Shown here: positions 52,948-53,108 of the stretch, in pieces
Layout: each line of letters starts with the position of its first letter
Numbering within the stretch: position 1 is the stretch's first letter
Source of the DNA: a virus
Taxonomy: Duplodnaviria; Caudoviricetes
Direction: 5' to 3' (one strand)
Virus record (IMG/VR): IMGVR_UViG_3300028792_000027
Location: 1-56,533 of that record
Length of the DNA: 56,533 nucleotides
The notes under the pieces: generated by a model
Databases searched by the model: none
What the model was told of the DNA's origin: nothing
Seen by the model: only the letters and a program-made list of their open reading frames with translations
Position numbers and translations under genes: made by a program

Positions 52948-53083
52948 CGGCCGGGTCGCTCGGGAATCAAACCCGTGTCAGCCAGGAACCGCCCGGCCTT
53001 CACCGCTGAGAGAAGGACGGACCAGCGAGTCCCAGCGGCTAGGAGCCGACTCCTGTGAGGCCGCCTCAACCCGACCCGGCCGT
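52948..53083 (-). ncRNA. Candidate structured ncRNA with T-loop-like arm
   Basis: 11-bp terminal stem, five internal helices, TAGACT -10 box 7 nt upstream. Confidence 0.6.
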
Positions 53084-53108
53084 GTACGCAAGTCTAACGG
53101 GGCCGACC

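What the first reader, a model, noticed from the sequence alone, without database searches (positions are those of the whole stretch)
52948..53096. Candidate multibranched ncRNA with a tRNA T-arm mimic, antisense between tail and lysin genes
Seen on the minus strand: -10 box TAGACT (53096-53091) 7 nt before an 11-bp closing stem (53072-53082 with 52948-52958). It encloses hairpins TGAGG/CCTCA (53056-53068), AGGAG/CTCCT (53041-53054), CCGCTGGGA/TCTCAGCGG (53003-53038), GCCGGG/CCTGGC (52981-52997) and CGGG-TTTGATT-CCCG (52961-52975), the last resembling a T-arm just before the 3' strand. Two G.U pairs favour the minus strand. It is not a canonical tRNA (about 136 nt, too many arms, no CCA). Established: tRNA-mimic Y RNAs (YrlA) occur in some actinophages. 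Inference: a tRNA-mimic/decoy or regulatory RNA, possibly a new class.
Basis: partly seen in the sequence, partly recalled or inferred. Interest (0 to 1): 0.78.

Follow-up and report, generated by a model that had tools for sequence, protein, structure and literature searches.

The report
Conserved hairpin-rich spacer before phage lysin
A 190-base non-coding spacer between the tail genes and the lysin gene of an uncultured soil actinophage is unusually conserved and can fold into a stem-closed bundle of hairpins, one of them tRNA-like, but whether it makes a small RNA is still unproven.

Summary
All six helices sit at the stated coordinates (40 of 40 pairs) in a real non-coding gap, 52947-53136, between a 219-aa tail-module ORF and a GH25-like lysin.

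No known family fits:
- ARAGORN finds no tRNA or tmRNA.
- Rfam gives only noise.
- The record holds no Ro60/TROVE gene and no integrase.

Only one relative could be fetched, L002. The gap differs at 5 of 190 bases, against about 15% at third codon positions. It is the best-conserved stretch in 6.5 kb. The three changes inside the element keep pairing only on the minus strand, as G-C to G.U. None is compensatory.

Evidence against:
- The whole gap folds no better than shuffles: z -1.18 on plus, +0.03 on minus.
- The inner helices are unstable in the ensemble.
- The low-divergence block spills into both flanking genes.
- No RNA data exist.

My odds: minus-strand tRNA-like small RNA 0.35, plus-strand lysin leader 0.30, no RNA function 0.30, att or tRNA remnant 0.05. 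This scan had not noted the element on other DNA.

The parts
52947..53136 (.). Non-coding gap of 190 nt between the last tail-module ORF and the lysin gene
   Evidence: ORF map. No frame has coding-like GC3. 185 of 190 bases are identical in L002.
52943..52958 (-). 3' strand of the closing helix (acceptor-like): 11 perfect pairs at 52948-52958, plus 3 outer pairs beyond a 2x2 internal loop
   Evidence: Ensemble probability 0.94 on the minus strand.
53072..53087 (-). 5' strand of the closing helix
53056..53068 (-). Hairpin UGAGG-CGG-CCUCA (5 bp)
   Evidence: Ensemble probability 0.10 in the window and 0.71 in L002.
53041..53054 (-). Hairpin AGGAG-UCGG-CUCCU (5 bp). Site 53045 differs in L002, turning G-C into G.U on the minus strand.
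53002..53039 (-). 10-bp hairpin with an 18-nt loop. Sites 53002 and 53009 differ in L002 (G.U in the window, G-C in L002, on the minus strand).
   Evidence: Ensemble probability 0.10 in the window and 0.93 in L002.
52980..52998 (-). 7-bp hairpin GGCCGGG-CGGUU-CCUGGCU with two G.U pairs on the minus strand
52961..52975 (-). T-arm-like hairpin CGGG-UUUGAUU-CCCG, 2 nt before the 3' strand of the closing helix
   Evidence: The same 15-mer lies in real tRNA-Gly(UCC) genes of three other phage contigs. Ensemble probability 0.97.
53091..53096 (-). -10-like hexamer TAGACT, 8 nt upstream of the 11-bp stem. No -35 match.
   Evidence: The promoter scan found none in 52000-54000.
52908..53231 (.). Low-divergence block against L002 (5 differences in 324 nt). 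It reaches about 39 nt into the tail ORF and 95 nt into the lysin ORF. One 379-nt contig piece (52853-53231) is shared by two co-occurring strains in run X1.
52287..52946 (+). 219-aa last ORF of the tail module. No Pfam or PHROG family. One relative in 5.8 billion proteins.
53137..54387 (+). Lysin A-like gene with a weak GH25 match. The likely start is GTG 53137, which has no Shine-Dalgarno sequence. The database copy is called from ATG 53179.

Best explanation
The gap most likely encodes a small, stable, non-coding RNA of about 135-145 nt on the minus strand, antisense to the late operon.

Proposed anatomy:
- Transcription would start around 53085-53083, 6-8 nt after the -10-like TAGACT.
- The 5' and 3' ends pair into an 11-bp helix (16 nt with the outer pairs).
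- A T-arm-like hairpin with a UUUGAUU loop lies next to the 3' strand of that helix. Together they make an acceptor/T 'minihelix' like the top half of a tRNA.
- A variable core of about 95 nt sits between them. It folds either into four hairpins or into two longer arms.

Proposed action (all inferred):
- The tRNA-like half would be handled by host proteins that recognise tRNA, which would give a defined 3' end without a terminator.
- It could then act as a decoy or sponge for such a factor.
- The RNA is also perfectly complementary to the tail-lysin spacer of the late mRNA. It could therefore act in cis as an antisense RNA on lysin expression.

Shown here: the helices, non-coding status, conservation, the strand asymmetry of G.U pairs and the T-loop-like sequence.
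Inferred: transcription, the RNA ends, the tRNA-like fold and the function.
For: 1. All six helices exist (40 of 40 pairs).
2. RNAalifold on the window plus L002 minus strands returns exactly these helices.
3. 45 of 45 pairs are standard pairs in both sequences. With the partner slid by 1-3 columns only 34-49% are.
4. Four pairs of that fold are G.U on the minus strand and A.C on the plus strand.
5. The three substitutions inside the element (53002, 53009, 53045) all switch G-C and G.U on the minus strand.
6. GGGTTTGATTCCC occurs once in the window against 0.03 expected. The loop fits the T-loop pattern U-U-N-R-A-N-N, which I recall from memory. The 15-mer is the T-arm of ARAGORN-called tRNA-Gly(UCC) genes in 3 of the 4 IMG/VR hits.
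7. The closing helix and the T-arm hairpin are the two robust features of the minus-strand ensemble, at probability 0.94 and 0.97.
8. The only TANNNT in the gap on either strand ends 8 nt before the helix. Background density is 1.8 per kb on that strand.
9. The gap is non-coding. It is also the most conserved 190-nt stretch against L002: 97.4% identity, and only 3% of 637 windows reach that, nearly all overlapping it.
Against: - No RNA data exist. One DNA run holds the stretch and no RNA run is listed.
- There is no compensatory change, 0 of 45 pairs. Only two near-identical sequences could be compared, plus a third genotype in X1 that is identical across the element.
- The minus strand of the whole gap folds no better than shuffles, z +0.03, 93 of 200. 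Even the trimmed element reaches only z about -2.
- The four inner helices have about 0.1 ensemble probability in the window's own sequence. Its MFE uses a different fold.
- There is no -35 like the phage's own TTGCTA-N17-TAGTAT promoters, no promoter by the scan and no intrinsic terminator in the gap.
- On the plus-strand consensus fold the same three substitutions fall in loops. They do not exclude that strand.
- The low-divergence block extends into both coding flanks, with 0 differences in 134 coding bases. All 5 differences lie in the non-coding part. A recombination tract would give this pattern without any selection on an RNA.
- The gene would be transcribed head-on against the late operon.
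Confidence: 0.35

Rival explanations
1. The structure works on the plus strand, as the untranslated leader of the lysis cassette inside the late polycistronic mRNA. The spacer uncouples lysin translation from the tightly coupled tail genes. Its stem-closed fold would act in cis as a partial terminator or attenuator, an RNase processing or stability site, or a control on initiation at the lysin start, which lacks a Shine-Dalgarno sequence.
For: - All neighbouring genes are on the plus strand, and the tail genes before the gap have overlapping or abutting stops and starts.
- The gap holds no plus-strand TANNNT and no promoter was found. Lysin is therefore probably read through from upstream, and this RNA must exist.
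- The plus strand folds better against shuffles than the minus strand in every test:
  - 161 nt: z -2.86, 1 of 200.
  - 145 nt: z -3.28, 4 of 500.
  - Second run: -2.99 for the window and -3.64 for L002, 1 of 300 each.
- The closing stem survives in the 331-nt context.
- The conserved block covers the lysin start and its first 95 nt.
- GTG 53137 has no Shine-Dalgarno sequence.
- Precedent: the Ms6 lysis genes depend on a termination signal in a leader RNA. I saw this only as the title of Garcia et al. 2002 in a reference list.
Against: - Four pairs of the six-helix fold are A.C on this strand. In L002 the change at 53045 opens a pair.
- The T-loop-like sequence and the -10-like box are meaningless on this strand.
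- There is no U-tract terminator.
- The whole-gap z is only -1.18, 23 of 200.
- The 331-nt block gives z -0.72.
- No covariation is seen.
Confidence: 0.3
2. The region has no function based on RNA structure. It is a GC-rich spacer at the tail/lysis module junction. Its stems are what 67% G+C sequence gives by chance. Its conservation reflects recent homologous exchange between co-occurring strains, or the general conservation of gene junctions.
For: - The whole gap is not more stable than shuffles on either strand. Nor is the 331-nt block.
- Perfect 11-bp inverted repeats are no commoner than in shuffles.
- Within the low-divergence block, all 5 differences lie in the non-coding part and none in the 134 coding bases. 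That is what a young recombination tract evolving freely would show.
- In run X1 two strains share another identical 226-nt piece (52537-52762) as well as the 379-nt one.
- Gene junctions are in general more conserved against L002, 91.6% in 960 junction bases against 86.4% in gene interiors.
- The inner helices are not robust.
- Nothing was found with a covariance model in 151 actinobacterial genomes, or with three pattern scans of IMG/VR.
Against: Several independent coincidences would have to be chance:
- A T-loop-like hairpin next to the closing stem.
- The only TANNNT of the gap sitting at promoter distance from that stem.
- Three of three substitutions preserving pairs.
- The longest conserved stretch of 6.5 kb lying on the one sizeable non-coding gap of the tail-lysis module.
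Confidence: 0.3
3. The element is a remnant of a tRNA gene, or an attP-type core copied from a host tRNA. On this reading the T-arm and 3' acceptor strand are host-derived DNA, not a working RNA.
For: - The T-arm 15-mer equals that of real phage tRNAs.
- In L006, a 70% G+C viral contig, the same T-arm is followed by what reads as a normal acceptor 3' strand, near the contig start and with no full tRNA called. tRNA halves of this kind therefore occur at viral contig ends.
Against: - The 56.5-kb record has no tyrosine or serine integrase. None lies in the 1.8 kb beyond it in L002 either. The record is only about 80% complete.
- Both strands of the acceptor-like stem are present, 113 nt apart. 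An attP core would not need that.
- The 13-mer occurs in 11 of 401 sampled genomes of the class of the one bacterial genome reached through the lysin. None of the 10 loci I examined is a tRNA or even a hairpin.
- ARAGORN and the Rfam tRNA models do not see a tRNA.
- A decaying pseudogene should not be the best-conserved stretch.
Confidence: 0.05

Closest known systems
Bacterial and phage YrlA (tRNA-mimicking Y RNAs; Chen et al. 2014, PMC4201824, abstract and passages read)
   Same: A small RNA of 80-130 nt in which the 5' and 3' ends form a long stem. It also has a T-arm-like stem-loop and is reported from phages too.
   Different: - YrlA genes lie next to a Ro60/TROVE gene and carry both T- and D-arm-like loops.
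- No TROVE gene is in this record.
- There is no D-arm-like loop.
- The T-loop has U where tRNA has C56 (numbering recalled from memory).
- No Rfam hit appears even at E up to 10.
- In YrlA the T-arm sits in a separate tRNA-like module, not beside the terminal stem.
- The paper's supplementary table of phage YrlAs could not be seen.
tRNA-like domain of tmRNA (recalled from memory, not tested beyond ARAGORN)
   Same: The topology is the same: 5' acceptor strand, a large insert, T-arm, then 3' acceptor strand.
   Different: - This element is about 140 nt, against about 350 nt for tmRNA.
- It has no tag reading frame and no pseudoknots.
- It has no CCA end and no G.U at the third acceptor pair.
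- ARAGORN calls no tmRNA.
Phage cis-antisense RNAs such as lambda OOP or P22 sar (recalled from memory)
   Same: A short RNA transcribed against a phage operon and fully complementary to the sense mRNA.
   Different: - Those RNAs have mapped promoters and intrinsic terminators, and they overlap coding or ribosome-binding regions.
- Here there is only a -10-like box and no terminator.
- The overlap is with an untranslated spacer.
Leader RNA of the mycobacteriophage Ms6 lysis cassette (Garcia et al. 2002; only the title was seen in a reference list; the paper is not held)
   Same: An untranslated region directly upstream of an actinophage lysis cassette, whose RNA structure affects expression of the lysis genes.
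   Different: [quoted passage not shown] Here there is no plus-strand TANNNT in the gap and no U-tract terminator.

Membership tests
tRNA | Cloverleaf with a 7-bp acceptor stem, D-arm, anticodon arm with a 7-nt loop, and T-arm | tested here: not met
   ARAGORN finds 0 genes in the window. The best tRNA-clan Rfam hit is tRNA-Sec at 12.5 bits against a gathering score of 47. The arms after the closing stem have 3-, 4-, 18- and 5-nt loops.
tRNA | T-arm: 5-bp stem and 7-nt loop T-Psi-C-R-A-N-N (recalled consensus) | tested here: inconclusive
   The stem has 4 bp, or 6 with an A.A mismatch. The loop UUUGAUU has U in place of C56. The same 15-mer is nonetheless used by three ARAGORN-called phage tRNA-Gly genes.
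YrlA / bacterial Y RNA | Encoded next to a Ro60 (TROVE) gene | tested here: not met
   PF05731 has no match in the record at E up to 1, while the control genomes do match. The record is about 80% complete.
YrlA / bacterial Y RNA | Match to the curated covariance model | tested here: not met
   No Y RNA or YrlA family appears among the hits at E up to 10 on 166 nt or 701 nt.
tmRNA | tRNA-like domain plus a tag peptide reading frame | tested here: not met
   ARAGORN finds none. Rfam finds none.
attP core derived from a host tRNA | Integrase nearby, and identity to the 3' end of a host tRNA | tested here: not met
   No PF00589 or PF00239 match. The T-arm 13-mer is not in a tRNA in any of the 10 loci examined, out of 11 hits in 401 genomes. 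The true host is unknown.
Independent sRNA gene (sigma-A promoter plus intrinsic terminator) | -10 and -35 boxes, and a hairpin with a U tract at the 3' end | tested here: inconclusive
   A -10-like TAGACT is present at the right distance. There is no -35 and no terminator.
Independent sRNA gene | A discrete transcript | not testable with these tools
   No RNA run is listed for this DNA.
Structured RNA in general | Compensatory base-pair changes in homologs | tested here: inconclusive
   There are 0 two-sided and 3 one-sided changes in 45 pairs with 2 sequences. No further homologs could be obtained.
Ms6-type lysis leader | Promoter(s) upstream of a leader that carries a terminator | tested here: not met
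   There is no plus-strand TANNNT in the gap, and no promoter or terminator by the scan.

The most novel reading that the evidence does not exclude
A new class of phage small RNA: a tRNA 'top half' (acceptor-like helix plus T-arm) carrying a 95-nt variable insert. It would be encoded antisense inside the late operon and matured by the host's tRNA-processing enzymes. It would serve as a decoy for a tRNA-binding host factor, such as a tRNA-targeting defence nuclease or a modification or quality-control enzyme. At the same time it could time lysin expression by antisense pairing with the tail-lysin spacer.
Probability: 0.15. Interest if true: 0.75.

Novelty: new variant of a known kind. Interest (0 to 1): 0.4.

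Why it matters
If the minus-strand RNA is real, it would add a tRNA-mimicking small RNA that needs no Ro60 partner to the short list of phage non-coding RNAs. It comes from an actinophage lineage with almost no sequenced relatives. It would also give a testable link between tRNA mimicry and the control of lysis.

If the plus-strand reading is right, it is a new example of leader-mediated control of an actinophage lysis cassette.

If neither holds, it is a caution. In 67% G+C phage DNA, a tidy multi-hairpin drawing together with local conservation is not enough to call an RNA gene.

Tried and rejected
Known families:
- ARAGORN found nothing.
- Rfam at gathering scores found nothing.
- Two permissive Rfam scans gave only noise.

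Protein coding in the gap was rejected, because no frame has a coding GC3.

A DGR or retron-type template was not pursued. The element has no second copy in the record. I ran no reverse-transcriptase search.

Search for homologs:
- DNA against 50,697 phage records: no match.
- Lysin and 219-aa protein against IMG/VR: none. The lysin alignment: none.
- JGI metagenomes: only L002.
- GTDB genomes: only L007, a bacterial GH25-like gene without the element.
- Protein searches: 8 lysin relatives and 1 relative of the 219-aa ORF in 5.8 billion proteins.
- Three IMG/VR pattern scans:
  - 3 real tRNAs plus L006.
  - 0 hits.
  - 10 unrelated hits with no tRNA.
- Covariance model R1: only the two training sequences scored. 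Nothing in L007 (best 16.5 bits), in G001 or in 151 genomes of its class. The model was built from two near-identical sequences and is weak.

Expression: no RNA holder is listed. Laying run X1, which is DNA contigs and probably the source sample, gave strain variation only.

Other checks that led nowhere:
- Shared motifs with other gaps: one 14-mer (53035-53048) is complementary to 54112-54125 inside the lysin's variable linker. Two 14-mers were found in all, the 14-mer expectation was not computed (about 8.3 chance matches expected for 12-mers, 16 found), and the site is not conserved in L002. I treat it as chance.
- Base-composition skew does not set the gap apart from the flanking plus-strand genes.
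- A genome-wide z-score scan was dropped as too slow on one CPU. One search timed out and was rerun smaller.
- Earlier notes of this scan hold nothing on this element.
- Papers:
  - Passages of PMC4201824 were read.
  - PMC9413003 and PMC6116114 were searched for passages, without relevant content beyond one reference title.
  - One search returned nothing relevant.
  - I did not find a report of an RNA between tail and lysin genes of actinophages in searches. These are narrow searches and do not show that none is in print.
The phage list of the YrlA paper was not seen.
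Full report
WHAT THE WINDOW IS. The window is a whole IMG/VR virus record: 56,533 bp, linear, about 80% complete by CheckV, 66.8% G+C. Nearly all genes lie on the plus strand. The stretch 45785-52946 is a siphovirus tail module, with these genes:
- tape measure protein, PF10145, E 7e-28;
- Dit-like protein;
- minor tail protein, phrog_1885, E 4e-54;
- a 219-aa ORF without family.

After the gap come a lysin A-like protein (weak GH25 match; 34-38% identity to mycobacteriophage lysin A in 278 records), a papain-like peptidase (phrog_16701, E 2e-49) and small ORFs. 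No cultured phage shares DNA with the region. The tail protein is only 25-30% identical to proteins of Arthrobacter and Streptomyces phages. This is an actinophage lineage with almost no sequenced kin.

THE OBSERVATION. The finding lies in a 190-nt gap, 52947-53136, between the stop of the 219-aa ORF and GTG 53137 of the lysin. None of the six frames has the third-position G+C of about 0.85 that marks the real genes. All 40 pair, and two of them are G.U on the minus strand and A.C on the plus strand. The closing stem is part of a 16-nt, 88% complementary inverted repeat. The description is therefore correct.

IS IT MORE THAN CHANCE? The answer is mixed.

For:
- The 13-mer GGGTTTGATTCCC occurs once in the window against 0.03 expected. 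The pattern is my own and was chosen after seeing the sequence.
- TANNNT is rare in this genome, 73 on plus and 101 on minus. The gap holds none on plus and one on minus, placed at promoter distance from the stem.
- Cut at the closing stem, the 145-nt element is more stable than dinucleotide shuffles, z -3.28 on plus (4 of 500) and -2.06 on minus (11 of 500). One search gave similar values, and so did L002.

Against:
- Those boundaries were chosen by the structure. The whole gap, bounded by the genes, gives z -1.18 on plus (23 of 200) and +0.03 on minus (93 of 200).
- The 331-nt conserved block gives -0.72 and +1.26.
- Perfect 11-bp inverted repeats within 200 nt are not enriched in the window, 6 hits at 4 places against 9.5 +/- 4.4 in 100 shuffles. 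The stem is notable only because it falls in the gap.
- In the window's own minus-strand ensemble only the closing stem (0.94) and the T-arm hairpin (0.97) are robust. The four inner helices have about 0.1, and the MFE uses a different two-arm fold.

KNOWN FAMILIES.
- ARAGORN finds no tRNA or tmRNA in the window.
- Rfam finds nothing at gathering scores.
- At E up to 10 Rfam gives only noise. The best tRNA-clan hit is tRNA-Sec at 12.5 bits against a threshold of 47.
- According to the passages I read of Chen et al. 2014 (PMC4201824), YrlA RNAs are encoded next to Ro60 and carry T- and D-arm-like loops. This record has no TROVE domain, and no Y RNA family scored.
- No tyrosine or serine integrase is present. 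None lies in the 1.8 kb that L002 adds to the right.

THE T-ARM. The pattern CGGGAATCAAACCCG-N5-GCC hit four IMG/VR contigs. In three low-G+C jumbo-phage contigs it lies inside ARAGORN-called tRNA-Gly(UCC) genes. This unusual T-loop, with U in place of C56, therefore does work in real phage tRNAs. The fourth hit, L006 at 70% G+C, looks like the 3' half of a tRNA near a contig start, with no full tRNA called.

I reached one bacterial genome through the lysin (L007, G001) and sampled 401 genomes of its class. The 13-mer occurs in 11 of them, and the reversed control in none. None of the 10 loci I read is a tRNA or even a hairpin. One hit is in an unpublished genome that I did not read. I found no sign that the hairpin was copied from a host tRNA, but the true host is unknown.

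COMPARATIVE EVIDENCE. Only one relative could be fetched, L002. It is part of a 12.6-kb soil metagenome contig whose lysin is 80% identical. Divergence from the window:

| Region | Differences | Rate |
|---|---|---|
| Tail ORF | 55 of 660 | 8.3% |
| First two thirds of the lysin | 63 of 854 | 7.4% |
| Third codon positions | 34 of about 220 and 42 of about 285 | about 15% |
| Gap | 5 of 190 | 2.6% |
| 135-nt element | 3 of 135 | 2.2% |

Of 637 sliding 190-nt windows over 6.5 kb, 3% reach the gap's identity, and nearly all of those overlap it.

All three differences in the element (53002, 53009, 53045) lie in helices of the consensus fold, and they switch G-C and G.U on the minus strand. On the plus strands it chooses another core fold, in which the same three sites are unpaired. 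The substitutions therefore fit a conserved structure on either strand. They lean towards the minus strand only through the tidier fold and the four G.U pairs.

There is no two-sided compensatory change in 45 pairs. I estimate the chance of the one-sided pattern under neutrality at roughly 0.05-0.1. This is my own arithmetic, not a tool result.

TWO CAVEATS ON CONSERVATION.
1. The low-divergence block runs from 52908 to 53231. It includes 134 coding bases without a single difference, while all five differences lie in the non-coding part. A young recombination tract in which the spacer evolves freely would look the same.
2. Laying the only public run that holds this DNA (X1, DNA contigs, probably the source sample) shows two co-occurring strains. 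They form bubbles with 6-8% differences in the flanks and share a single 379-nt piece, 52853-53231. They also share another 226-nt piece, 52537-52762.

Gene junctions are also generally better conserved against L002 than gene interiors, 91.6% against 86.4%. The conservation is real, but it does not by itself prove selection on an RNA.

SIGNALS. The consensus scan finds no sigma-70-type promoter on either strand in 52000-54000. Its only terminator-like site is at 53519-53496 on the minus strand, outside the gap. They read TTGCTA-N17-TAGTAT and lie 6 nt before an ATG, which I confirmed by reading the sequence. The putative promoter of the element has only the -10-like box. On the plus strand the lysin start GTG 53137 has no Shine-Dalgarno sequence. 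That start is supported by a CxxCExD motif shared with the N-terminus of a 42%-identical relative, although the database copy is called from ATG 53179.

SEARCH FOR MORE COPIES.
- A covariance model built from the two minus-strand sequences (R1) finds only those two (181 and 182 bits) among the window and six loci.
- It finds nothing above 16.5 bits in L007, nothing in G001 and nothing in 151 genomes of its class.
- Two further IMG/VR pattern scans gave 0 hits and 10 unrelated hits.
That is the most direct step left undone.

READING. Four explanations remain.

(a) A minus-strand small RNA of about 140 nt whose ends form an acceptor-like helix beside a T-arm mimic. It is supported by the strand-specific features: G.U pairs, the T-loop sequence, the -10 box at the right distance, and the closing helix and T-arm being the robust parts of the ensemble. 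It lacks a transcript, a terminator, a -35 box and covariation. I give it 0.35.

(b) A plus-strand leader of the lysis cassette acting in cis. It is supported because this strand is the one transcribed, folds better against shuffles, and sits where translational coupling is broken before a start that lacks a Shine-Dalgarno sequence. It is weakened by the A.C mismatches and by having no promoter or terminator of the Ms6 kind. I give it 0.30.

(c) No structural function. It is supported by the unbiased folding controls and by the recombination pattern. I give it 0.30.

(d) A tRNA or att remnant. I give it 0.05.

I commit to (a) as the single best mechanistic reading because it alone accounts for the strand-specific coincidences. 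The margin is small.

COMPARISON AND NOVELTY. The element works most like a tRNA-mimicking small RNA of the YrlA kind, or like the tRNA-like domain of tmRNA. It fails the defining tests of both, and of tRNA itself. If real, it would be a new variant of the known kind 'phage or bacterial tRNA-like small RNA', with no Ro60 partner and an unusual antisense position in a late operon. With two near-identical sequences and no RNA data, the claim remains a candidate. I score interest at 0.4.

Noticed in passing
window 53137-53178: The lysin probably starts at GTG 53137, 14 codons upstream of the ATG used for the database copy (P0001, 402 aa). The extension carries a CxxCExD motif that is also present in the N-terminus of a 42%-identical relative (P0004). 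This start has no Shine-Dalgarno sequence, whereas ATG 53179 is preceded by GAAGG.
   Followed up: partly
window 53990-54260 (lysin linker): Between the conserved catalytic part and the conserved C-terminus of the lysin, identity to L002 falls to 44-59% over about 250 nt, with indels. This looks like a swapped or fast-evolving linker module inside one gene.
   Followed up: no
L006 540-620 (IMG/VR contig, 70% G+C): The same T-arm 15-mer is followed by what reads as a normal tRNA acceptor 3' strand, near the start of the locus, but ARAGORN calls no tRNA. It may be a tRNA 3' half left at a prophage end (att site).
   Followed up: partly
window 52300-53700, run X1: The one public run that holds this DNA contains two co-occurring strains of the phage. 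Paired contig pieces differ by 6-8%, and several of the variant's letters match L002. These alternate with shared identical pieces, a mosaic that suggests ongoing recombination.
   Followed up: partly
window 54384-55947: The lysis region carries two further putative cell-wall or protein hydrolases after the lysin. One is a papain-like peptidase (PF00112, phrog_16701) and the other a weak C92 amidase-like ORF. No lysin B or holin was recognised by Pfam or PHROGs.
   Followed up: no
window 53098-53111: A second small G+C-rich hairpin, CGGGG-CCGA-CCCCG, lies between the element and the lysin start. On the minus strand it sits inside the would-be promoter spacer and is followed by UUAGACUU. The two L002 differences at 53116-53117 lie just beside it.
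   Followed up: no
I confirmed them by reading the sequence.
   Followed up: partly
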